In this document: positions 1 to 14,772 of the stretch, piece by piece | Layout of the letters: every line of letters begins with the position of its first letter | How positions within the stretch are numbered: the stretch's first letter is position 1 | DNA from: a virus | Lineage: Duplodnaviria > Heunggongvirae > Uroviricota > Caudoviricetes | Strand: one strand, 5' to 3' | Length of the DNA: 14,772 nucleotides | Virus record (IMG/VR): IMGVR_UViG_2728369183_000003 | Made by a program: the position numbers and the translations under genes | The notes under the pieces: generated by a model | Told to the model about the DNA's origin: nothing | The model's input: the letters and a program-made list of their open reading frames with translations, nothing else | Databases searched by the model: none

Positions 1-41
1 CTTTAGTTTAATATTGGAATAGCAAAATATTTGTATAAATA

Positions 42-344
42 TTAGCGGTATACACACTTATAGATAATCCAAAGCTGACGAAGGTGTTGTTTTACCTTAC
101 AGTGGCTTACTTCTCCATAAATCCGATTACTTTGGTCTTCTTCTGTGTCATCGTAAAAATGATATCTCGTTTTTTTAATGATACTTTCCATAATGTCATT
201 CATATTGTATTTATTGTTGAGAAAATAATAAAAATCATCTGGTGCATTCCTCCGCAATCCGTCCATATAGCTCCTGAAATAACATTCGGCTTGTTCAATA
301 AACTGTTTTGTCGTAATAAGCTCTATCTTCATATTTTTCTCCAT
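42..344 (-). CDS. hypothetical small protein (about 96-100 aa) in AT-rich DNA downstream of alpA; second in-frame ATG at 332 has a better GGAG Shine-Dalgarno
   Basis: ORF in the six-frame track with mixed charged/aromatic composition; same strand as and 70 nt downstream of the AlpA-like gene; no family recognised. Confidence 0.35.
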   Translation of the reverse strand: MEKNMKIELITTKQFIEQAECYFRSYMDGLRRNAPDDFYYFLNNKYNMNDIMESIIKKTRYHFYDDTEEDQSNRIYGEVSHCKVKQHLRQLWIIYKCVYR

Positions 345-413
345 TATTGCTTAGGATAATAGGATGCCATGTGAGAACAGTTATCTGTTCGACACGAGAT
401 CTTGTTTCTGTTT

Positions 414-632
414 TTATGCTGCGTTCTGGCGTGAGTTTCGAATAGCCGCTTCAATCCATTCATCAATCTCACTTTCAACAAAAGCGACACACCTCGGACC
501 TATTTTTACTCTGTCTGGAAAGTTTCCTTCCTTAATACGTTCATATAAGGTCGTGCGACTGAATCCCACTCGATTTAAAACATCAGGAACGCGGATAAAT
601 CGTTTTACGCTGGTTTCAATATTTTCTTTCAT
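414..632 (-). CDS. alpA: AlpA-family (prophage CP4-57 regulatory protein-like) helix-turn-helix transcriptional regulator, 72 aa
   Basis: Translation MKENIETSVKRFIRVPDVLNRVGFSRTTLYERIKEGNFPDRVKIGPRCVAFVESEIDEWIEAAI matches the AlpA pattern (FIRLPEV...G.SRSTLY..I..G.FP.PVK.G.R.V.W...EV..WI) from memory. ATG at 632 is preceded by GAGGACAGACA; the longer 96-aa ORF from 704 has no ribosome-binding site. Confidence 0.8.
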   Translation of the reverse strand: MKENIETSVKRFIRVPDVLNRVGFSRTTLYERIKEGNFPDRVKIGPRCVAFVESEIDEWIEAAIRNSRQNAA

Positions 633-847
633 TGTCTGTCCTCTATTATTGTAAGTAATCTCTATGAGATTTCGCTTTTCTCTATGTTGTTTCGACGTGA
701 ACAATGATAGCGATTTTGCTTATGGTAATTTAGGGACGTTCAAAGAAGTTTTTTTTGAAAAATTCGAAGGGGCACGGATGGAAAGATAACGGTTAACACT
801 GGATGAGATCACGTTCGCTCGGAGCGAACGTAACCCTTTTACTTGGC

Positions 848-1684
848 TTATTTTTTCTTATTCCTGTCGTCTTCTACATGCTTTTCAACAGGGGAGTCTT
901 TCAAGTGGTTGTTTTCCATCATGTAATCTTCAAGCGATTTCAGATAGCTCGCATCCGTCAGAAAAGCCATTGCTAACGGGTAGTCCGTTGCCTTTAGCAT
1001 TCCTTCATCACGATCGTTGTCGCTGTCCTCGTGAAGCAGCGAAGAAATCAGTGAAAGCGGGATTTTAATGCCGTTATCTTCTCCCCAGAAGATCAGGTCC
1101 ATCATCGGGATAAGACGATATTCAATGATTTTTCTGAATGTGCTTTTGCCGAAACGATACTCTCTTGGCGCTGGAGACTTCATCTTAAGCTGTCTCTTCC
1201 ATTGAGGGATCAGCACTTTCAGATGTTCAATGATTTCTTCAGTTGATGCCTCTTCCAGATGAATATCGACAGTAATGCGTGAAAGATTATTAAGGGATGT
1301 TTCTTTTAGATACTCGGACAGAAATTCGGATTCGCTTAACGCGGAAAGCTCAGGCGTGGCTTCGGTTAATGCCAGCGTTTTCGCATAAAATTGCGCGTGG
1401 CTTCGTGTCGTAGGATTTACCGCGTAGGTTCTGGCAAGCTCATGTCCAAGGGTAGCGGTATCACCACTGAAAAAGATTTCACCGCTGAGGATCTTGTTGC
1501 GGTAATCATCCAGCATTAATCGGTTAAAGGTAGGTATGGTGTTCCGGCTCAACAACATTCTGTAAGCCAAGATACGCCGCTCAACCTCAACATAAAACTG
1601 CTGTAAGGTGAGTTTCTCTATCGCCTCATAGCGTTCCACATCAAACCATGCTTCCAGTGCTTTCCTGATTTCACTTCTTTTCAT
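848..1684 (-). CDS. hypothetical protein, 278 aa from the ATG at 1684 (ORF open upstream to a TTG at 1741); no recognisable family
   Basis: Long ORF in AT-rich DNA; ATG at 1684 is preceded by GGAGGA 4 nt upstream, whereas the TTG at 1741 has no Shine-Dalgarno. Sits between the tRNA fragment and alpA. Confidence 0.5.
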   Translation of the reverse strand: MKRSEIRKALEAWFDVERYEAIEKLTLQQFYVEVERRILAYRMLLSRNTIPTFNRLMLDDYRNKILSGEIFFSGDTATLGHELARTYAVNPTTRSHAQFYAKTLALTEATPELSALSESEFLSEYLKETSLNNLSRITVDIHLEEASTEEIIEHLKVLIPQWKRQLKMKSPAPREYRFGKSTFRKIIEYRLIPMMDLIFWGEDNGIKIPLSLISSLLHEDSDNDRDEGMLKATDYPLAMAFLTDASYLKSLEDYMMENNHLKDSPVEKHVEDDRNKKK

Positions 1685-1892
1685 CCATCCTCCAACAATC
1701 CATTTCCTTTGATATATCTTCACAGGATCCGTTTGGAACAATTGAAGTTCAACTGTTTTGTCATCAGAGACGGGGGAATGGCTAAGTTGTTGTTAAGAGT
1801 GTGAACTCGAGAGCATAAAAGTGGATGCCCGACGCGCGGCAAAATGGTAAAAAACAGCATCAGTAGTAAGAAAAATTGAGCGAGAGAAAGGA

Positions 1893-1921
1893 ATTTTAAT
1901 GCAGGGATTTATGCATGACAA
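1893..1921 (-). promoter_or_regulatory. candidate sigma70 promoter upstream of the 278-aa ORF (TTGTCA, 17-nt spacer, TAAAAT on the minus strand)
   Basis: -35 TTGTCA at 1921..1916 and -10 TAAAAT at 1898..1893 read on the minus strand. The region is AT-rich, so a chance match is possible. Confidence 0.3.
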
Positions 1922-1962
1922 AATCAAAAATTATTTGTAAGTGATTGATTTTGTTGAATGAT

Positions 1963-2024
1963 TGGCGGAGAGAGGGGGATTTGAACCCCCGGTAGAGTTG
2001 CCCCTACTCCGGTTTTCGAGACCG
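1963..2024 (-). tRNA. truncated tRNA-Ser (serU-type, anticodon CGA) 3' fragment of 62 nt, from the anticodon stem to the CCA end; not a functional tRNA, interpreted as the prophage attachment-site core (attR)
   Basis: Reverse complement of 1963..2024 reads CGGTCTCGAAAACCGGAGTAGGGGCAACTCTACCGGGGGTTCAAATCCCCCTCTCTCCGCCA, matching the 3' part of E. coli tRNA-Ser(CGA) as recalled. Similarity stops at 2025; the 5' acceptor and D arms are absent. Confidence 0.85.
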
Positions 2025-2514
2025 ATGATACAGAGTCGAAAAATCAAAGAGTTAAAAATTTTTCTTGGAATAAATGTCTTAAAATCGTACACGAAAAATC
2101 AATAAATTACATAACATTAAAGAAGAATATTCCAAGCCTTCTTGAGGCCACCACCTGTTTTCAGGTGTCATTCAGATGTGATTTACCCCAGATTGGGAAA
2201 GCACGCTTTTTTTTCTCAGCTTATTCCGTTTTGCCTGTGTGTTGAATAATTCCACTGCAGTTATATAAAATCGGTAACGGCTGGAAATCATTCAATACTC
2301 GCACTATCGAAAGTTCACCAGCCAACCGCAGCACGTCCTGCATACGTCGTGTCTGCGGTTTTTCTTTTTCGCTTACATTGTGTCTGGTTCTTCCAGCCAC
2401 TCAATATCAGGTGCAGTTGATGTATCAACACGGTTCAGCAACACCCGATACTTTTTCCAGGCTTCCAGCAACGGGGTTTCTTCCTCCGCCGTTGCATATA
2501 CAGCTCACCTTTTT

Positions 2515-5334: not shown

Positions 5335-5934
5335 TCAGAAACGGTATCCGATACCAACAATAAATGCATCCGTTCGCCAGTCGCCACTACCGGAACCTTC
5401 ATAAGCAATATCAATGGTCACGGATTCGGTCGGGTTAAACTGCACGCCAGCTCCCCACGCCAGAGACGTGTTGCTGTGGCGATCGTCATCACTTCCGGTC
5501 AGCACATCGTGCGTTTTCCCCTTGTTGTCAGTTACGCGGAGATAATCCCCGGAGAACGTCGACACACGGCTGTAAGCCACACCTGCCATCGCATAAGCAC
5601 TGAACCATTCATTCACGCGTACAGATGGCCCCGCCATCACGCTGAACCAGCGGTTACGCACTGAATCTTCATGCCAGCGGGTATCGCTGTAGTGCGTTTT
5701 TTGCTCATCCTCAGCATTGGCATAACTGAAGGACGTAATCAGCCCCAGCGCGTCCGTAAACTCATAACGGTATTTCACGTTAATCCCGTTCAGATTATCG
5801 CTGCCTGGCATATCAGTGTGGGTCTGAAGATACCCGGCGCTTAGTGTGGACTGATGCTCTGCTGCGCTCGCTGGCGTACCAGCGGCAACCAGCCAGACTA
5901 CTGCGGACAGAATAACAGCACATAATTTACGCAT
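5335..5934 (-). CDS. lom: Lom, Ail/Lom-family outer-membrane beta-barrel protein (lysogenic-conversion moron), 199 aa
   Basis: Signal-peptide-like N-terminus MRKLCAVILSAVVWLVAAGTPASA and C-terminus ...SVTIDIAYEGSGSGDWRTDAFIVGIGYRF, nearly identical to the lambda Lom C-terminus as recalled; GAGAGG Shine-Dalgarno before the ATG at 5934. Confidence 0.9.
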   Translation of the reverse strand: MRKLCAVILSAVVWLVAAGTPASAAEHQSTLSAGYLQTHTDMPGSDNLNGINVKYRYEFTDALGLITSFSYANAEDEQKTHYSDTRWHEDSVRNRWFSVMAGPSVRVNEWFSAYAMAGVAYSRVSTFSGDYLRVTDNKGKTHDVLTGSDDDRHSNTSLAWGAGVQFNPTESVTIDIAYEGSGSGDWRTDAFIVGIGYRF

Positions 5935-6001: not shown

Positions 6002-7336
6002 TCAGCTAATCGTGATGCCTGCAGTGGCTTTCTTCATCACAACAACCAGCAAATCGCTGATACTTGCTGTGGGATACCAGCCATTTACCCACCATGCTGA
6101 TACAGAAAACTCCAGCGTCATGTCGCCGCGACCAGCAGGCATATCAATAACACCACTGTAAACCAGCGTATTATCCATCGCGGTACGGTTATAAATTTCA
6201 GCACCGTTTTTCTTCACTATCAGGCGGCATGACGAATAAGTATCGCTGTTCTCCCGCTCATGTCTGGCACCGCTGAAAGCCACCGCCGGAATAACAATCT
6301 GCCGGTTAAACGGCTGATCGTCATAAACCCTGACGGTAATGGTTCCTGATGGCCAACGCTTCGGTGCACGGGAGTCACGAGGGAAAGCCTTACCCACTGT
6401 TTTAACGAGATCGCCTTCAATCTGGTTTGCAGACAGTTTCCCTCTGATGACACAGTTCTTGTTAATGGTGACATTATTGAGCGTGCCGGTATTCGCCGTG
6501 ATGGCTCCACTGATATCCGCATTGCGGGCTGTCAGCCTGCCATCCGGCGTCAGGGAAAACGTCGGAGGATTGCCGGATGACGTGATGCTCACCGCAAACA
6601 GTCGCTTCAGGAACACGTCGTTCATGAACAGCTGATTCCCCTGCGCCACAAACAGCGGCGTGGTGTTGCCGTTCTCCGGGGTAATCATCGCGATACGGTC
6701 CGCCTGCAGCAGAATACTGCTCAGCGTCTGACCATCAACATCCTCAATCCCCGCGCCAATCCCGGCCACATAGGGAATACCGTTTTTTGTTTTCTGCACC
6801 TTCAGCATATACATGGCATTCAGCTCATTGCGCGTGTCTGACTGAACCCGCTGGATTTGCTGTATGGTCACGGCCTGGTCACCCAGCTTTTTATCCGTGG
6901 TCGAGGTAATTTCACTCCCTTTTTTATCCACGTACTGGCGGACCTGTGCTATCTGTCGGGCGTTTTCTGACTGCCCCTGGCTGACAGTCTGTGAGATTTC
7001 ACTGCTCACCCGGTCCACTTTCTGGCTCACCTGCGCGATGGCCAGTGTCTGGTCCTCATTCTTTTTCGCAACCAGCTGCGTGAGGCTGTTTTCCGCCTTC
7101 CCGATTTTCCGGGTCACTTCTGCGATATCCGTGTCCATCCGCTGACGGATGTCTTCTTCCAGTTGCGTGACCTCCGTACGCAGCGCTGAAGCATCAATGC
7201 GCTCTTTCAGTGCCTGGCCCAGAAGCGTCTCATCTATCAGCCCCCGGAAAAATTCCAGATACCCTTCACCATCATTGCTGGGCTGCCCGCTGGCTTCCAC
7301 AAAAGCAGATTTTCCCACCAGGTTGACGCTTCGCAC
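6002..7336 (-). CDS. J: host specificity protein J (central tail fibre), C-terminal fragment; frame is open upstream to about 7400 and joins the N-terminal fragment through a single-base frameshift
   Basis: Translation ...[40 protein letters not shown]...[10 protein letters not shown]...[22 protein letters not shown]...[14 protein letters not shown] is collinear with the C-terminal third of lambda J as recalled. Confidence 0.8.
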
Positions 7337-9693
7337 GTAAAACCAGAAATCCGTCCCCGGCTTAATCCGGCTCCCCTGGACAGTCCACTGACTGCCGGTC
7401 CCAGATAACGGGCAGATTTTTCCACCTGTGCCGTGTTCGTGATGCGTTTTTCTGAGAACCAGAATTCAAACTGTACCGTCGGGTCATACACCGCAAGACG
7501 CGGGACCGCCGTTATCTGAAAATACCCCGGCGTCAGCTCAATGGTGGCGGGTTTTGCAGGCGCGTTAATCCGGAAGGTGGTGGTCGCAGGTTCGCCCTGC
7601 TGGCCGTAGCTGTTAATGGCCCGCACCGTCAGGGTGTATTCCCCCAGCGGCAGACCACTGAAACGGTGCTCCGTGTCTGCGGTGATGGCGGTGCTCACCA
7701 GACGGCTGTCTTCTCCGCTTCCGCTGGTCAGACGCAGACTGAAGCGCACACCCTTCACCACCCGCGGCGTGTCCCATTTCGCCTGTGCCAGATACTGACC
7801 GTCAGCTGCACTCACCTCCACCGTCAGGTGCTGCACTGCCGGTGGGATAACGCTGTTCAGGCTGCCTGACTGCGGCTCAAAGCTGGCCCCGTTATCCACA
7901 ATGGCTTCTTTTTCCGGTACGTGCTGCACCGCCGTGATGGCGAACGTGCCGTCCGTGTTTTCCCGGATGGAGACACAGCGGAACAGGCGACGACGCAGTG
8001 ACGGCAGGGAGAGTCCCCACACCCCGTATGTCTCCACACCATCAGGCAGGGTACTGACCTGTATCCGGTCCGGCGCGGGGTGTGCGGTGATGTCCACACT
8101 CACCGGCTTACCGCTGCCGTTAATCAGGTTCACCGCCGATGTACCTGTCTCCGGCAGGGTAACCTCACGGTCCAGCGTCAGGGTGCGGGTGGCAGCATCA
8201 ATGGACAGGACACGTCCGCCGGTCAGGGTCCCGGCATAGTCATTATCACAGATTTCAATAATGTCACCGGGTGTGTGCCGCAGCCCCTGAGACCCGAGCG
8301 TGAAATCCACCGTCTGCGTTTCCAGCAGTTCGGTCTTTATCACCCACAGTCCGGCACGGTGGGCCTGACCGCGGCTGGTACAGCCGAACGCGTCCATCTT
8401 CAGCAGGTTGCGTCCGTAGCGCAGTATGGCTTCCGGGTCTTCCACCAGTTCCGTGGAGGTCTGCCAGCCGTTCTGCGGGTCGGTGTAATTCACCTCCACC
8501 GCCGTGTGCCGGTCCTTCAGGGCACTGAAGCTGTAGCGGAATCCCACGCCGTTATCATCCACCACCACATCGCTGTTGGTGTACGGCCACACCACATCCG
8601 ACGGGCGGTCCTGAACGAACGTCAGCGTCTGACCGTTCCATACCGGCATACAGCGCATCGCAGAGCAGAAATCACTGAGAACGTCCCACGCCTTACGCTG
8701 TTGTGCCAGGTACGCATTAAAGGTCATCCGCGGCTCGGTCCCCCCGAAACCATCCGGGACCGTCTGGTCGCAGTACTGCCCGATGGCATACAGCGCCCAC
8801 TTGTCCACATCCGCCGCCCCCAGACGTTTTCCCATGCCGTAGCGCGGGTGAGTCAGCATGTCCCACAGGCACCAGGCCGGGTTGTTGCTGTATGCCGGTT
8901 TCAGACTGCCGTCCCAGATACCACTGTACGTGCGTTTTTCCGGGTCATAGTTTGACGGCACCTGGATGATGCGACCGCGGATATGGTAGTTCACCGTCAT
9001 CTGCTGGCCGCCGAACTGCTCCGCATCCACCTGCAGCCCCACAATGGCCGTGTTCGGGTAGCACTGTTTCACATCGATGATTTCGGTGTATGACGACCAC
9101 AGCGTCTTATTCTGCAGCTGGTCCGTGGTGCTGTCCGCCGTCTCCCTGACCATCCGGATGTTAAAGGGCCGGGGAGGCAGATTATCCAGAATCACCGAGG
9201 CCAGGAACTGCGAGGTGGTCTTGCCGTTAATGGTGACATCCTTTTCCGTCACCCAGCGGCCATTACGCTGTAACTGAATCAGAATCCGGACAGAGGAAGG
9301 ATTACGGTCGCCCTTTGACGTGGTCTGCACCAGTGACTGCACCCCGAAGGTAACCCGCAGGCGGTCAATGTTCGCGGACGTAATGGTGCGCGTCACCGGT
9401 TTTGCCTTCGTCACTTCCACGCCCAGTCCGGTTTCAGCACCGGAGGACTCAAAGCCTTCCGGTGGTGTCTGCTCCTGCTCCCCGGCGCGCCAGACCGCCG
9501 TCACACCGTGTATCACGGGATTACCGTCCGTGTCCGTCAGCGGGGTTTTGTTCACCAGGATACTCTGCAGTCCCTTCACCGGACCTTCTATCGGTCCCTC
9601 ACCAATCGCATCAATCACGCTCATCATCTGCGTGGATTTGAGATTATCCTTCGCCTCACGAGGCGTGTGTGCCTTACCGCCACCTTTTCCCAT
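7237..9693 (-). CDS. J: host specificity protein J (central tail fibre), N-terminal fragment of 818 aa ending in an out-of-frame tail after the frameshift near 7365-7370
   Basis: ATG at 9693 preceded by GGGGAAGG. Translation ...[29 protein letters not shown] follows lambda J; after YLGPA the frame departs from J and the continuation appears in the overlapping frame of 6002..7336. Confidence 0.8.
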
Positions 9694-9797
9694 ACAGCCT
9701 TCCCCTGAATAAATTAACCGCCACTTGCCATTCCGTACAGAAGTCGGATATCCTTCGCCCGAAAAGCATGAAACACATTTCTGCCATGCTAAAGAGA

Positions 9798-9832
9798 AAC
9801 CCCGGTATCAGCAGATACCGGGGTTTTCTTTC
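9798..9832. terminator. bidirectional hairpin terminator candidate inside the I-J intergenic insertion
   Basis: Perfect 12-bp inverted repeat AACCCCGGTATC-AGCA-GATACCGGGGTT (9798-9825), followed by TTTTCTTTC on the plus strand and by TTTCTCTTT on the minus strand. Confidence 0.5.
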
Positions 9833-9898
9833 ATGCCCACCGATAATCCTGTTGGTTAAAACCGGTAATGGCATAAAAATTCTGAATATCTTCACATT

Positions 9899-9926
9899 TT
9901 CACAAACTGACTGTGGCGCGTATAAT
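9899..9926 (+). promoter_or_regulatory. near-consensus sigma70 promoter (TTCACA, 16-nt spacer, TATAAT) firing rightward, antisense to the late tail operon
   Basis: -35 TTCACA at 9899-9904, -10 TATAAT at 9921-9926, A/T-rich upstream tract at 9871-9890. Confidence 0.45.
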
Positions 9927-9932
9927 TTCTCT

Positions 9933-10030
9933 GCGTTAATTTTTTTGTCGTGATATAAGAATAATTCCTTACACTTAATCTTCGTAACTCTCCCGCAGTT
10001 CCTGTCCGCGATCACTGCGGGATTTTTTTA
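9933..10030 (+). ncRNA. candidate small RNA of about 100 nt between tail genes I and J, defined by the promoter at 9899-9926 and the terminator at 9992-10036; no ORF inside
   Basis: Promoter and intrinsic terminator in correct order and spacing on the plus strand; the only in-frame start after the predicted transcription start (GTG ATA TAA) terminates at once. Family not recognised. Confidence 0.35.
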
Positions 10031-10036
10031 TTCTTT
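9992..10036 (+). terminator. rho-independent terminator (plus strand) abutting the 3' end of gene I
   Basis: 8-9 bp GC-rich stem CCCGCAGT / ACTGCGGG (9992-9999 and 10014-10021), 14-nt loop, then TTTTTTTATTCTTTTT (10023-10036). Confidence 0.55.
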
Positions 10037-10717
10037 TTACCCCTGCCGCCCGATAACCACGACCTTTCCGCCCCCGCCTTCATCACGGGTGCTGATGTCC
10101 TGGGATATACGGCGGGAGCCAACCAGCATTTCCCCGTAAGGCACCGGCATCGGGTTCCCCTGGGCAATCATGTTATCCAGTGAGGAAAAGTACGTGTTCT
10201 GTCTGCCGTTATCCGTTGCGCGGTAATCCGGTGTTTTTGCCTTCGGGGCCAGCATCTGGGCCACACCGCCCAGAATCATGCTGGCTCCAAGTGAAAACAG
10301 CATCGTGGTGGCAGAAAAACCACCGGCTGCCAGGGCTGAACCCCATAACGCCATTGATGCCCCGGCAGTGAAGAAAGAGCCCACGATGGCTGCCGCCCCC
10401 AGCACAATCTGCAGTCCACCCTTTCCGGCCCCGGCCAGTCGCGGCACAATGTGGATGACCGTTCCCTCACCCAGCTGTTCGTGAAGACGGGCGTACACCG
10501 CCTCCGGTGCCGTGTCATAACCGGCAATACGTATCTGGTACCAGCCTTCGTTCATCTGACGGCGAAAGCCCGGCATCTGCATCGACAGGGCGCGAATGGC
10601 TTCCGCTGCCGTGTTCACATACAGGCTGAGGCGGCGGCCAAATCGTTGTAAATCCCCGTGAAGGCAGATGCGTGCCAGTGGCGGTGACGCCAGACTGAAT
10701 GCGTTCGTCGTTGCCAT
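10037..10717 (-). CDS. I: tail assembly protein I (lambda gpI-like), 226 aa
   Basis: Translation ...ARICLHGDLQRFGRRLSLYVNTAAEAIRAL...IVLGAAAIVGSFFTAGA...LGASMILGGVAQMLAPKAKTP...QNTYFSSLDNMIAQGN...YGEMLVGSR matches lambda gpI as recalled. Confidence 0.9.
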   Translation of the reverse strand: MATTNAFSLASPPLARICLHGDLQRFGRRLSLYVNTAAEAIRALSMQMPGFRRQMNEGWYQIRIAGYDTAPEAVYARLHEQLGEGTVIHIVPRLAGAGKGGLQIVLGAAAIVGSFFTAGASMALWGSALAAGGFSATTMLFSLGASMILGGVAQMLAPKAKTPDYRATDNGRQNTYFSSLDNMIAQGNPMPVPYGEMLVGSRRISQDISTRDEGGGGKVVVIGRQG

Positions 10718-12067: not shown

Positions 12068-12396
12068 CAGTTCACCACCTGCTTAAACTCCGCGCTGAAC
12101 TCAACGCGCAACATCCCGACCCGTGCAGACCACCCGGCACAGGTCACCTTTATCTGCCGGTATGCATAGGGTGGCTTCCACAAAAATGCCTTCCAGCCAC
12201 CGTGCTCTGCCAGGAACGCTTCCAGATGCCGGGCCTCCTCCCGGGTCACGGAAAGCGTCACCCTGTATGTTTTCAGGTCAGCATTCAGCCCTGCCGCCAT
12301 ACGCTGTGAGTACCCGTCACCAAAACGCACTTCACGCACCGATGGCTGCGAGTTCACCTCCATATCCGGCTTCACTTTCCAGCGAAAGGTTTTCAT
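12067..12396 (-). CDS. M: minor tail protein M (lambda gpM-like), 109 aa
   Basis: Translation MKTFRWKVKPDMEVNSQPSVREVRFGDGYSQRMAAGLNADLKTYRVTLSV...GGWKAFLWKPPYAYRQIKVTCAGWSARVGMLRVEFSAEFKQVVN is near-identical in pattern to lambda gpM as recalled; start overlaps the H stop (ATGA). Confidence 0.9.
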   Translation of the reverse strand: MKTFRWKVKPDMEVNSQPSVREVRFGDGYSQRMAAGLNADLKTYRVTLSVTREEARHLEAFLAEHGGWKAFLWKPPYAYRQIKVTCAGWSARVGMLRVEFSAEFKQVVN

Positions 12397-14772
12397 CCAC
12401 CGCTCCCTGATAACATACCGCCATCACGCAACTGCAGCCGGAGTTCATCCTGTGCCCCCTTGCGGGCCATCTCATACACCGCTTTCATCAGCTGCGGCCC
12501 TGCCCGCCCGTTGGGGCCGTCGTTCTGAATCACCACGTGATTGTTCTGATTAAAATTAATGCCTTCCGCCCGCCGCATCTGCGCCGGACTTCCGGCACCG
12601 CCGACATAACCACCTTCCGCATAGCCCCGCATCAGGCGGTACAGATTGCCGACACCAATCCGGCTGGTCGCCTCCTTCGTGAAGACAAACTCCCCGCGAT
12701 GAACAATCCCCGCAGGTTCATATTTACCCCCCGTCCCCGTAAATCCCCCGGTCGCGAAATGGAAGTTCGCCGCCGCAGCCTGAATGGCTGTACCGCCTGA
12801 CGCGGATGCGCCGCCACCAACAGCCCCGCCAATGGCGCTGCCGATACTCCCNNNNNNNNNNNNNNNNNNNNNNNNNNNNNNNNNNNNNNNNNNNNNNNNN
12901 NNTATCCCCACCATCGCCTGCTTCAGAAAAATCTCTGTCAGCATGGACAGCACAGAACGGGTGAAACCACGCCAGTTCTGTTCGCTGCCGGTCAGCATCG
13001 CTGCCATATTCTGTGCAATACCGTCAAAGGTCTGCGTGGCCGCGTTTTTAACCTGCGAAAAACTGTCCGTCGCACTTTCCGCCCACTCGCCCCAGCCGGA
13101 CTTCATCCCGGCCATCCAGCTTCCACGAAGCTGCTCCTCCGCAGACCAGGTGTTCTTCAGTGCNNNNNNNNNNNNNNNNNNNNNNNNNNNNNNNNNNNNN
13201 NNNNNNNNNNTCCGCGGGCTTTTGCGCTGATTGCCGCCTGCTTCGCGCTCTGCTGCTGTTCAAACCGCGCCGCCTGCTGTGCCAGCTCATTCAGCCGTTT
13301 CTGGTGTTCAATCTTGTCGCCCAGCTCAGCCAGCTGGCGTTTGTACTCCAGCGTTTCTTTCTCATGGGCCAGCAGGGATTTTTCCTGCTCAGATAACTGC
13401 CGTTTCGTGGCGGCCTCTTTCAGGACCACATACTGATTTTCCGCTTCCCATAAATCCCGGCGCTGCTGGCTGATTTTCTCATTCACACCGCTGTGTTTTT
13501 CCAGCGTCCTGAGCTCGGTTTCAAGCGCCAGCATGGCTGCATGCGCCCGGTCTTCCTGGCGCTCACCGGCAGACACCTTCACACCTGACGGCTTTTTCAG
13601 CGTCGATTCATAATCCTTTTTTGCCGACGCCATCAGCGTGTTGTAATCCGCCTGCAGGATTTTTCCGTCTTTCAGGGCCTTATTCAGCTCTTTCTGACGG
13701 GCGGTATATTTATCCAGCGGCGTCTGCAGGCGCTCATACGCCTTCTGCGCCTCTCCGGTATACTTCAGCTGTGACGCCTCACGCTCAGCCCGGTCCCTTG
13801 CCGCCAGTTCACCGGCTTTTTCCATATCCGACTGCAGCGTGGCCGCTGCCAGACCCAGACGGGCATTTTCCCGGTCATCCCATGCCCCCTGAAGGTTCGC
13901 ACGAAAAGAGGAGGTCTTTCCCCGGCGCTGGCTCCGGCTCTGGTACCACTGCCATTTTTTATCCGCCTCATCAAATGCCTTCTGCGCACTGGCGAGCATA
14001 TCCGCTGAGGATTCAGGACGACCGATATCCAGAATGGCATCCCACATCGATTTGAATGCCTTCCCTGTTTTATCCGCCCAGGTCTCCAGTGTTCCCATGT
14101 TTTCTTTCAGGCGACGGGTCTGCTCATCAAAGCCTTTCGTGGCGATATCGTTCGCCGCCTGCAATGCCCCGGCCTCGTCTCCGGAACGCTGCAGCTGTGC
14201 AACATACGCAATCTGCTCTGCCGTCACGTTACGGAACTGGCGCGCCATCGCCATCAGTCCCGACGTCGGGTCAGTGGTCAGCTTCCCGAAGGCTTCAGCG
14301 ACTTTATCCACCTCCACACCGGATGCAGACGCAAAACGCGCGACACTCTGGTTGATGGCATCAAACTGTTCACCACCACGCACACCGGCATTCATCAGGG
14401 CTGCCAGTGACTCTCTCGCCTGGTTAAACGTCAGCCCTGCTGCCTGCCCGGCTCTTGAGAGAGTCAGCATACGATCGGCAGTCAGTCCGGACTGATTACC
14501 GGAAAGAACCAGGGTTTTATTAAACGCTGAAAGCGTGGAATCTCCCTGGTACCAGGCGTACACCAGCGCACCTGTCGCCACCGCCAGCGAGGTGACCCCG
14601 ACCATCGGCAGGGTGATCGCACCGGCGAGCCCCCTGAACATGGGGATCATCCCGCCGAAGGAGTCCTTCACCTGACCGCCCTGTTGCAGCAGGATCAGCC
14701 AGGGATTCTGACCACCGGCAAGCTGCGTGGCGATATCCGTAAACTGTGCGGGCAGGGTTCGCATGGCCGCTT
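12393..14772 (-). CDS. H: tail tape measure protein H (lambda gpH-like), partial; 5' end lies beyond the right window edge; interrupted by N-runs at 12852-12902 and 13164-13210
   Basis: ORFs 13157..14764 (MRTLPAQFTDIATQLAGGQNPWLILLQQGGQVKDSFGGMIPMFRGLAGAITLPMVG...) and 12393..13115 (...WMAGMKSGWGEW...IVHRGEFVFTKEATSRIGVGNLYRLMRGYA...) are collinear with lambda gpH from about residue 80 to the C-terminus. Lambda H has about 80 residues N-terminal of the MRMLPAQFTD motif, so the true start is outside the window. Confidence 0.85.

What the first reader, a model, noticed from the sequence alone, without database searches (positions are those of the whole stretch)
9694..10036. 343-bp insertion between tail genes I and J carrying a promoter-terminator unit: candidate prophage small RNA antisense to the late operon
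In lambda, I and J are essentially contiguous. Here 343 bp of lower-GC DNA separates the I stop (10037) from the J start (9693). On the plus strand, antisense to every tail gene, it contains a near-consensus promoter (TTCACA-16-TATAAT, 9899-9926) and a strong intrinsic terminator about 70-100 nt downstream (9992-10036), with no ORF between them. A second perfect 12-bp hairpin with U-rich flanks on both strands (9798-9832) could also attenuate late-operon read-through into J. This is the architecture of a moron-type regulatory RNA. I cannot name a family from the sequence.
Basis: seen in the sequence. Interest (0 to 1): 0.65.

Follow-up and report, generated by a model that had tools for sequence, protein, structure and literature searches.

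The report
Prophage small RNA PasB, divergent allele
The spacer between tail genes I and J holds a self-contained gene for a small regulatory RNA that is already known (PasB in EPEC, very probably EcOnc22-24 in EHEC); the copy here is a common but so far unsurveyed sequence variant, so the finding is correct but mostly not new.

Summary
A 343-nt, low-GC spacer (9694-10036) separates I and J. On the strand antisense to the tail genes it carries an 11/12 sigma-70 promoter (9899-9926) and a 9-bp terminator with U7 (9991-10029), with no ORF between them. None of 5000 shuffles reproduced that arrangement.

It is the PasB locus. PasB is an 83-nt sRNA of EPEC E2348/69, shown by northern blot and Hfq RIL-seq (Pearl Mizrahi 2021). 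It maps to the same I-J gap and strand, and its promoter and terminator are nearly identical to the window's. After a coordinate shift I inferred, Hfq-bound EcOnc22-24 of EHEC Sakai (Tree 2014) fall on the same unit.

The window's RNA body is only about 59% identical to PasB. A search set up like the 2026 PasB survey (word size 28, over 75% coverage) does not find it. Yet 633 of 5426 complete E. coli genomes carry the unit at 99% identity or more, and so does an isolated phage.

The most likely mechanism is an Hfq-dependent, trans-acting base-pairing sRNA expressed from the prophage. Expression of this allele and its targets are untested.

Side observations:
- A sense-strand hairpin before J is also present in lambda.
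- A conserved CRP-like site overlaps the promoter.
- J and H are frameshifted.

The parts
9933..10029 (+). Predicted primary transcript of the PasB-family sRNA (W-type allele), about 97 nt. The position equivalent to the mapped 5' end of E2348/69 PasB is 9946, which would give about 84 nt.
   Evidence: The start is inferred from the -10 hexamer, 7 nt downstream. The 3' end is placed at the U-run. Orthology to PasB rests on alignment A1 and the PasB coordinates in PMC8550237 Table S6.
9899..9926 (+). Sigma-70 promoter: -35 TTCACA (9899-9904), 16-nt spacer, -10 TATAAT (9921-9926).
   Evidence: 11/12. The ATAAT of the -10 is invariant in the 33 alleles and is also kept in the Sakai Sp15 copy. The -35 position is not kept in the Sp15 allele (TTCCGG) or in L244.
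9881..9896 (.). CRP-like palindrome TCTGA-N6-TCACA (9 of 10 core positions), centred at 9888.5, about -44.5 from the predicted start. Speculative activator site.
   Evidence: Read directly from the sequence. Both half-sites are kept while the 6-nt spacer differs across alleles: ATATCT in the window and E2348/69, GTTTAT in L244, AACTCT in Sakai Sp15. No binding data.
9966..9983 (+). Single-stranded core of the sRNA body, the most conserved part among alleles (TCCTTA ... AATCTTC). Candidate seed region; UUCCUU is anti-Shine-Dalgarno-like.
   Evidence: Alignments. The consensus fold leaves this region unpaired. Its role as seed is inferred, not shown.
9991..10029 (+). Intrinsic terminator and likely Hfq-binding module: 9-bp stem (9991-9999 with 10014-10022), 14-nt loop, U7 (10023-10029).
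   Evidence: The 7-bp core CCCGCAG/CTGCGGG is kept in 11 of the 12 alleles aligned; the twelfth, L243, lacks part of the 5' arm. The published PasB northern probe matches 10002-10024 (-) with 3 terminal mismatches.
9797..9827 (.). Strong hairpin flanked by T-rich runs on both strands. On the tail-gene (minus) strand it reads as hairpin followed by UUUCUCUUU, about 105 nt upstream of J.
   Evidence: -28.7 and -32.2 kcal/mol; z -5.3 and -4.8. Analogous sense-strand hairpins with U-runs occur in the unrelated short spacer type and in lambda.
9694..9880 (.). Upstream ('long') module of the spacer. It is unrelated in sequence to the 94-nt 'short' module of E2348/69 and assorts independently of the sRNA allele.
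   Evidence: All four combinations occur: window long+W, O157 locus L245 long+E, E2348/69 short+E, phage PhiR5_1 short+W.
10037..10717 (-). Tail assembly gene I (226-aa ORF; stop codon at 10037-10039).
   Evidence: Pfam Lambda_tail_I, E 6e-17. RefSeq annotation of identical spacers in other genomes names the flanking gene a tail assembly protein.
6002..9693 (-). Tail tip gene J, broken by a 1-nt deletion in a G-run near 7399-7402 into ORFs of 818 and 444 aa.
   Evidence: The Pfam Ig_J_second domain is split across the two ORFs.

Best explanation
The plus-strand unit at about 9881-10029 is a gene for a PasB-family small RNA. It is an autonomous 'moron' inserted between the I stop codon and the hairpin that precedes J.

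The proposed mechanism has these steps:
- In a lysogen the unit is transcribed from its own sigma-70 promoter, independently of the Q-dependent late operon.
- It ends at its own intrinsic terminator, giving an RNA of roughly 84-97 nt.
- The RNA has a largely unstructured body followed by a terminator hairpin and U7 tail.
- The hairpin and U-tail bind Hfq.
- The unstructured body base-pairs in trans with mRNAs of the core and accessory genome.

What is shown and what is inferred:
- For the E2348/69 allele, expression, size, Hfq dependence and in-vivo RNA partners are shown in the literature.
- For the window's allele they are inferred. The grounds are orthology of position and strand, a near-identical promoter and terminator, and the retention of an identical unit in hundreds of genomes.

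The window's allele ('W-type') differs from published PasB through most of the body. Its target set is therefore probably only partly shared with PasB.
For: - Same locus and strand as PasB.
- PasB in E2348/69: 83 nt by coverage and northern blot; log2 fold change -6.8 in an hfq mutant; U-tract of 7; second RNA in at least 98.7% of its chimeras; 37 interactions.
- PasB partners under the activating condition: bfpB, bfpI, ftsZ, galE, ler, perB, rplX.
- EcOnc22/23/24 of EHEC Sakai are Hfq-crosslinked, about 85 nt, and destabilised without hfq. After a +138 to +142 nt shift between genome versions, calibrated on AgvB1, they fall on the same unit in the I-J gaps of Sp15, Sp14 and Sp11.
- Across the 33 alleles (126 copies) the ATAAT of the -10 is invariant; the CCCGCAG/CTGCGGG terminator core is kept in all but one allele and the U-tract in all, while the body varies.
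- The only consensus structure is the terminator. The body is unpaired.
- No ORF in the RNA.
- The promoter-plus-terminator arrangement appeared in 0 of 5000 shuffles.
- The 171-nt promoter-to-terminator query matches 633 of 5426 complete E. coli genomes at 99% or more, with about 207 more at 90-99%.
- W-type copies occur in the isolated phage PhiR5_1.
- The unit is intact here although J and H are broken.
Against: - There are no transcript data for the W-type allele.
- Rfam 15 has no family that matches, so membership rests on synteny and alignment.
- The body is only about 59% identical to PasB.
- No seed could be defined. The original authors found no common target motif for PasB (no PasB entry in Table S7). 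My duplex scans against ftsZ, galE and ler pointed to three different sRNA regions, and whole-body duplex energies were no better than shuffles.
- The mapped PasB 5' end lies 20 nt downstream of the -10 hexamer. That is further than a normal start site, so either processing occurs or the start is imprecise.
- Linking EcOnc22-24 to this unit depends on a coordinate shift that I inferred from a single control locus.
Confidence: 0.8

Rival explanations
1. The RNA acts mainly in cis. It is perfectly complementary to the I-J intercistronic part of the late mRNA. During lytic growth it would pair with that mRNA, triggering RNase III cleavage or altering the I:J expression ratio. Conversely, the abundant late mRNA would titrate the sRNA.
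For: The unit is antisense to the late operon along its whole length. Its position between I and J is fixed across all alleles and both spacer types.
Against: The sRNA does not overlap the J ribosome-binding site; J starts 240 nt away. It also does not overlap the I coding sequence. In E2348/69 it was detected in lysogens, where the late operon is silent, and the PasB chimeras I read are with trans-encoded RNAs. The two roles do not exclude each other.
Confidence: 0.12
2. The W-type allele is a decaying, non-functional copy of PasB. Its promoter and terminator survive only because the prophage spread recently.
For: The body has diverged strongly from the characterised allele. The surrounding prophage is degrading, with J and H frameshifts.
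Against: W-type copies come in several sub-variants that all keep the promoter -10, the terminator stem and the U-tract. The allele sits in different spacer backgrounds and in a viable phage. The most conserved body segment, TCCTTA...AATCTTC, is shared with the expressed allele.
Confidence: 0.06
3. The spacer is non-transcribed filler, or it encodes a small protein rather than an RNA regulator.
For: RefSeq annotates nothing in the spacer in any of the top hits. Mechanical ORFs cross it: 9669..9953 (+) and 9674..10015 (-).
Against: The orthologous unit gives an RNA validated by northern blot. The mechanical ORFs cross the unrelated long and short modules and are not conserved. Within the RNA the only start codons give 2-3 codons in the W-type.
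Confidence: 0.02

Closest known systems
PasB sRNA of EPEC O127:H6 E2348/69 (Pearl Mizrahi et al. 2021, PMC8550237; distribution study by Zhu, Shabalina and Storz 2026, bioRxiv 10.64898/2026.05.13.724894)
   Same: Same I-J gap of a lambdoid prophage and same strand, antisense to the tail genes. The aligned promoter region (TTCTGAATATCTTCACATTTTCACA, the -10 and the early transcribed GCGTTA) is nearly identical. A 25-nt stretch covering the terminator's 3' arm and the U7 tract is identical. Same overall length and same architecture of an unstructured body followed by a terminator.
   Different: The body is about 59% identical; overall 63 of 89 aligned columns match. The terminator loop has a 5-nt insertion. 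The upstream half of the spacer is an unrelated, 100-nt longer module. A search with the published criteria (word size 28, query coverage over 75%) does not detect the window. At word size 11 only the 25-nt terminator aligns, which is 30% coverage. The published variants are described as differing by 'a few nucleotides'.
EcOnc22 / EcOnc23 / EcOnc24 of EHEC O157:H7 Sakai (Tree et al. 2014, PMC4104026, Table S2)
   Same: Hfq-crosslinked, about 85 nt on northern blot, destabilised in an hfq mutant, and present as three homologous copies in Sp15, Sp14 and Sp11. After the version shift they fall on the plus-strand unit in the I-J gaps.
   Different: The Sakai Sp15-type allele is a third divergent body, with an AATAAT -10 and a non-consensus -35. 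The equivalence with PasB is my inference. The notes column for PasB in Table S6 of the 2021 paper lists no EHEC homologue.
Anti-sRNAs AgvB and AsxR (Rfam RF02702, RF02703)
   Same: Prophage-encoded, Hfq-dependent sRNAs of pathogenic E. coli with a conserved 3' module and variable 5' ends. They illustrate the same modular principle.
   Different: They lie 3' of PR' in the Q-proximal moron site, are 51-60 nt long, and are unrelated in sequence. No Rfam match in the window.
DicF (Qin prophage sRNA)
   Same: A prophage-encoded Hfq-dependent sRNA. PasB, like DicF, forms chimeras with the ftsZ translation-initiation region: reads at 111363-111505, ftsZ start at 111422. DicF's action on ftsZ is from my own knowledge, not tested here.
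   Different: No sequence similarity, and a different prophage locus. No evidence that the W-type pairs with ftsZ.

Membership tests
PasB sRNA family | Gene lies in the spacer between tail assembly gene I and tip gene J of a lambdoid prophage, antisense to them | tested here: met
   PasB coordinates fall between the tail assembly protein and gpJ in NC_011601. The window unit lies between I and J on the opposite strand.
PasB sRNA family | Homologous promoter and terminator (common descent of the transcription unit) | tested here: met
   In alignment A1 the aligned promoter region is nearly identical and a 25-nt stretch covering the terminator's 3' arm and U-tract is identical. Intermediate and recombinant alleles link the W and E types.
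PasB sRNA family | Detectable with the 83-nt PasB query under the published survey criteria (blastn word size 28, query coverage over 75%) | tested here: not met
   No hit at word size 28. At word size 11 only 25 nt align, 30% coverage (criteria). This is an operational criterion, not a biological one.
PasB sRNA family | [quoted passage not shown] | tested here: met
PasB sRNA family | Expressed as an RNA of about 83 nt whose level depends on Hfq | not testable with these tools
   Shown only for E2348/69 and, by inference, for Sakai EcOnc22.
PasB sRNA family | Forms Hfq-mediated chimeras with trans-encoded mRNAs | not testable with these tools
   RIL-seq exists only for the E-type allele. My in-silico pairing was inconclusive.
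AgvB/AsxR anti-sRNA family | Located 3' of PR' in the Q-proximal moron site; 51-60 nt; conserved 3' region | tested here: not met
   This unit is in the tail region and is about 84-97 nt. No match to RF02702 or RF02703 at gathering threshold or at E up to 10.
Any Rfam 15 family | Covariance-model match at gathering score | tested here: not met
   No match in the window. In 9600-10150 there were only chance-level hits, the best at 19.6 bits against a gathering score of 60.

The most novel reading that the evidence does not exclude
The I-J spacer is a modular sRNA cassette. A conserved, activator-dependent promoter (CRP-like site TCTGA-N6-TCACA) and a conserved Hfq/terminator module bracket an exchangeable body. 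Recombination within the conserved ends shuffles bodies and upstream modules among lambdoid phages. The W-type body, the commonest form in ExPEC-like genomes and missed by the current PasB survey, would then define a distinct regulon from EPEC PasB. That would make 'PasB' a set of allelic regulators rather than one sRNA.
Probability: 0.3. Interest if true: 0.5.

Novelty: new member of a known kind. Interest (0 to 1): 0.3.

Why it matters
The family already has experimental support as an Hfq-dependent sRNA that contacts virulence-regulator mRNAs (ler, perB, bfp) and ftsZ in EPEC. Three points would matter if confirmed:

- The allele in this window sits in about 12% of complete E. coli genomes at 99% identity or more, many of them extraintestinal isolates. 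A search set up like the published PasB survey does not see it. Counts of PasB distribution, and conclusions about its low diversity, are therefore probably incomplete.
- The 2014 EHEC sRNAs EcOnc22-24 and the 2021 EPEC sRNA PasB appear to be the same family. That would link two data sets.
- An intact sRNA unit inside a prophage whose tail genes are frameshifted fits the idea that hosts keep phage regulatory RNAs while the phage decays.

None of this changes the kind of element. It is an ordinary moron-type, Hfq-dependent sRNA.

Tried and rejected
- Rfam at gathering and at permissive thresholds found nothing.
- AgvB/AsxR as the identity was rejected. They lie at a different prophage site and are unrelated in sequence.
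The pattern proved generic and returned unrelated terminators from many phyla (loci L123-L242 are irrelevant). I therefore could not measure spread outside E. coli myself and rely on the 2026 preprint for 'Escherichia/Shigella only'.
- Whole-body RNA duplex predictions of E- and W-type sRNAs against ftsZ, galE and ler were no better than shuffles. Windowed scans pointed to three different sRNA regions, so no seed could be assigned.
- A full-text search for allele-specific sequence strings found no paper. A keyword search for sRNAs between tail genes found nothing relevant.
- The first attempt at pair counts for the short-type hairpin was mis-registered by 2 columns and was redone. Covariation support is weak: 1 compensatory pair, and 195 of 500 shuffles reach the same score.
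- An alternative promoter nearer the mapped PasB 5' end (TAGTGT) was considered by eye and rejected because there is no usable -35.

Full report
**Observation**

The window is the tail region of a lambdoid prophage read on its minus strand.
- The ORF at 10037..10717 (-) is tail assembly protein I (Pfam Lambda_tail_I, E 6e-17).
- The ORFs at 7237..9693 (-) and 6002..7336 (-) carry the J domains.
- The ORF at 5335..5934 (-) is Lom.
- The gap between the I stop and the J start is 9694-10036, 343 nt. Its GC is 0.42-0.46 against 0.58-0.62 in the flanks.

On the plus strand the consensus scan finds TTCACA-16-TATAAT at 9899-9926, an 11/12 match. Downstream lies a perfect 9-bp stem (9991-9999 paired with 10014-10022) followed by T7 at 10023-10029. 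Nothing longer than three codons can be translated between them.

I shuffled the spacer 5000 times, preserving dinucleotides. Eighteen shuffles had a promoter this good, 6 had such a terminator, and none had both in order. The second hairpin (9800-9823, extendable to 9797-9827) is also real, with z-scores of -5.3 and -4.8 on the two strands.

One premise needs correcting. Lambda's I and J are 60 nt apart, not contiguous.

**Identity**

Rfam 15 has no matching family. The 343 nt occur in 1662 of 5426 complete E. coli genomes, and no feature is annotated under any of the listed top hits.

The literature gave the name. Pearl Mizrahi et al. 2021 (PMC8550237) described five prophage sRNAs of EPEC E2348/69 found by Hfq RIL-seq and confirmed by northern blot. 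Their Table S6 places PasB on the minus strand of NC_011601.1, from 1466343 to 1466261, 83 nt, with probe AATCCCGCAGTGATCGCGGAGCT.

In the RefSeq record those coordinates lie between the tail assembly protein (1465674-1466255, +) and gpJ (1466496-1469969, +), antisense to both. Aligning that gap with the window gives three results:
- The aligned promoter region is nearly identical.
- A 25-nt stretch covering the terminator's 3' arm and U-tract is identical.
- The segment between them, and the J-proximal half of the spacer, are diverged or unrelated.

The published probe matches window 10002-10024 (-) with three terminal mismatches. The unit is therefore the PasB locus.

**Experimental support for the family**

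In E2348/69:
- PasB is 6.8 log2-fold lower in an hfq mutant under activating conditions.
- It has a U-tract of 7.
- It is the second RNA in at least 98.7% of its chimeras.
- It has 37 interactions.
- It is more abundant under the non-activating condition.

Its partners under the activating condition are bfpB, bfpI, ftsZ, galE, ler, perB and rplX. The ftsZ reads start at 111363-111505 and bracket the ftsZ start codon at 111422.

Tree et al. 2014 (PMC4104026, Table S2) list EcOnc22, 23 and 24 of EHEC Sakai. These are three homologous Hfq-crosslinked sites in Sp15, Sp14 and Sp11, about 85 nt on northern blot and destabilised without hfq. Their coordinates refer to NC_002695.1. In NC_002695.2 each lies 22-24 nt past the J start, inside the I-J gap, on the strand antisense to the tail genes.

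I calibrated the version shift on AgvB1. Its v1 peak is 1941783-1941835 and its v2 sequence is at 1941921-1941977, a shift of about +138 to +142. Applying that shift puts EcOnc22 on the body and terminator of the PasB-like RNA in the Sp15 gap. I conclude that EcOnc22-24 are the same family. This is an inference. Neither paper says so in the parts I read, and the notes column for PasB in Table S6 is empty.

**Allele survey**

I scanned IMG/VR with the promoter string and added loci from E. coli genomes. This gave 126 copies in 33 distinct alleles, all sharing the promoter string the scan selected for.

Conserved across alleles:
- The ATAAT of the -10 (the hexamer is TATAAT, AATAAT, GATAAT or CATAAT).
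- The early transcribed GCGTTA.
- The segment TCCTTA...AATCTT(C/T).
- The terminator core CCCGCAG/CTGCGGG (in all but one allele).
- The U-tract.

The region after the internal T-run, the stretch before the terminator, and the terminator loop vary.

Two classes dominate:
- The E-type is the published PasB and its C27A variant PasB-2.
- The W-type is the window's allele, 52 of the 126 copies.

Recombinant-looking intermediates exist, for example L063. Window and PasB share 63 of 89 aligned columns, and about 59% outside the terminator.

The 2026 preprint on PasB distribution used the 83-nt query with word size 28 and a coverage filter above 75%. It reports that PasB variants differ by only a few nucleotides. 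Re-running those settings against the window gives no hit. At word size 11 only the 25-nt terminator aligns, which is 30% coverage. The W-type was therefore almost certainly not counted.

In complete E. coli genomes, the 171-nt promoter-to-terminator query matches 1848 genomes. By record, 633 are at 99% or more, about 207 at 90-99%, 874 at 80-90% (which includes the E-type, at about 81%) and 145 lower. Many W-type hosts are human or avian extraintestinal isolates. The isolated phage PhiR5_1 (host E. coli C) carries a W-type copy.

**Structure and mechanism**

Single-sequence folds and RNAalifold on 12 diverse alleles agree. The only consensus structure is the terminator stem, which does not vary. 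The body is unpaired. This is the usual anatomy of an Hfq-dependent base-pairing sRNA, with a single-stranded seed region followed by a hairpin and U-tail that bind Hfq.

I therefore commit to the following mechanism: constitutive or regulated transcription in the lysogen from its own promoter, Hfq binding at the 3' module, and trans pairing with mRNAs through the body.
- For the E-type these steps are shown: expression, Hfq dependence and chimeras.
- For the W-type they are inferred.

The seed is not established.
- The original authors found no common target motif for PasB.
- The 2026 preprint proposes, from conservation only, the stretch just upstream of the terminator.
- My windowed duplex scans against ftsZ, galE and ler picked three different regions of the E-type. 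Whole-body duplexes were no better than shuffles.

The stretch just upstream of the terminator differs between the types (E: CAUUUGUCUGUC; W: CGUAACUCUC). The shared core contains an anti-Shine-Dalgarno-like (C/U)UCCUU. Partly overlapping and partly distinct target sets are the likeliest outcome.

A cis role against the late I-J mRNA is possible, because the RNA is fully complementary to it. However, the RNA overlaps neither the J ribosome-binding site nor the I coding sequence.

**The mapped 5' end**

The E2348/69 start was assigned from read coverage and band size. It corresponds to window 9946, 20 nt past the -10 hexamer and at the end of an internal U-run. A primary start near 9933 followed by processing, or loss of 5' coverage, would both explain this. 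I cannot tell which.

**The rest of the spacer**

The J-proximal half comes in two unrelated modules: a long one (window, 196 nt before the promoter string) and a short one (E2348/69, 94 nt). Each contains a GC-rich hairpin that, on the tail-gene sense strand, is followed by a U-rich run.

Lambda's own 60-nt spacer has the same feature, ACCGCC-TGCG-GGCGGT followed by TTTTGTCATTT.

Among five short-type variants, 97.8% of cells are paired. One pair is compensatory, and two sequences have G-U wobbles that would be A-C mismatches on the other strand. This hints at function on the sense strand, but the statistics are weak, with 195 of 500 shuffles reaching the same score.

The PasB unit thus looks like an insertion between the I stop and a pre-existing hairpin before J. 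What that hairpin does is open. It could insulate J from transcription that is not antiterminated, or it could act in mRNA processing or stability.

The two halves assort freely. The combinations long+W (window), long+E (an O157 locus), short+E (E2348/69) and short+W (PhiR5_1) all exist.

**Promoter context**

Overlapping the -35 region is TCTGA-N6-TCACA (9881-9896), a 9/10 match to the core of the CRP consensus TGTGA-N6-TCACA, with matching A/T flanks. The consensus is from my own knowledge.

In the two most divergent alleles, L244 and Sakai Sp15, both half-sites are kept. Meanwhile the 6-nt spacer and the nominal -35 hexamer change. That pattern suggests an activator-dependent promoter.

The site centre is about -44.5 from the predicted start, 3 bp further than a canonical class II site. 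PasB being higher under the non-activating condition is compatible with this idea but not specific to it. I rate this a lead only.

**Genomic context**

The whole window is not in the complete-genome set. The best match is 97.4% identity over 93% of the window.

Compared with close relatives:
- J has a 1-nt deletion in a G-run near 7399-7402. It splits the gene and its Ig_J_second domain.
- The tape-measure gene H is split at about 13116-13157, with a 46-nt deletion relative to strain AR_0017.

Either the prophage is defective or the assembly has indel errors. The sRNA unit is intact in either case.

**Verdict**

However, the element belongs to a family that has been known since 2014 and 2021. 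What is new is limited:
- A divergent, very common allele that the published survey criteria miss.
- The probable identity of EcOnc22-24 with PasB.
- The modular make-up of the spacer.
- A candidate activator site.

I file it as a new member of a known kind, of modest interest.

Noticed in passing
window 7399-7402 (J, minus strand); ORFs 7237..9693 and 6002..7336: J is split by a 1-nt deletion in a G-run (GGGG to GGG) relative to intact 3693-nt gpJ genes of SK1144 and AR_0017. The Pfam Ig_J_second domain is divided between the two ORFs. This is either a pseudogene or an assembly error.
   Followed up: yes
window 12393..13115 and 13157..14764 (minus strand): The tape-measure gene H is also in two frames. 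Relative to AR_0017 the window has a 46-nt deletion near 13163-13212 and a 48-nt insertion near 12848-12904. With J, this makes two broken tail genes around an intact sRNA unit.
   Followed up: partly
window 9797-9827; L001 (E2348/69) short module; lambda 15445-15504 (L252 746-805): A hairpin followed by a U-run on the tail-gene sense strand sits just upstream of J in three unrelated spacer sequences, including lambda itself. The short-type variants show one compensatory pair and G-U wobbles that are valid only on the sense strand. Its function is unknown (terminator or insulator, or an mRNA stability element).
   Followed up: partly
window 9881-9896: A CRP-like palindrome TCTGA-N6-TCACA overlaps the promoter. 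Both half-sites are conserved in divergent alleles while the spacer and the nominal -35 change. The centre is about -44.5, which is not a canonical class II position.
   Followed up: partly
NC_002695.2 2902691-2902930, 2676622-2676861, 2166672-2166911 (L247, L248, L249): The three Sakai I-J gaps are identical to one another and carry a third PasB-like allele. After a version shift of about +140 nt, the Hfq-CRAC peaks EcOnc22/23/24 fall on it. The PasB papers I read do not make this link.
   Followed up: partly
window 9725-9832 (+): A weak promoter-like site (TTGCCA-18-TATCCT, 9/12) lies about 45 nt upstream of the 9797-9827 hairpin, which also has a T-run on the plus strand. A second small plus-strand transcript of about 70 nt from the long module cannot be excluded.
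   Followed up: no
window 1-2400: The left end is low in GC (0.32-0.45). By comparison with AR_0017 (99% identical there), it encodes a DUF6387 protein, a helix-turn-helix regulator and small hypothetical proteins downstream of the tail-fibre genes. In AR_0017, H-NS-family genes lie just beyond the window's left end. It looks like a cargo region and differs from the potB-adjacent end seen in SK1144.
   Followed up: no
L256 (phage PhiR5_1) 2424-2663; L245; L001: The upstream module (long or short) and the sRNA allele (W or E) occur in all four combinations. This implies recombination within the conserved promoter region.
   Followed up: yes
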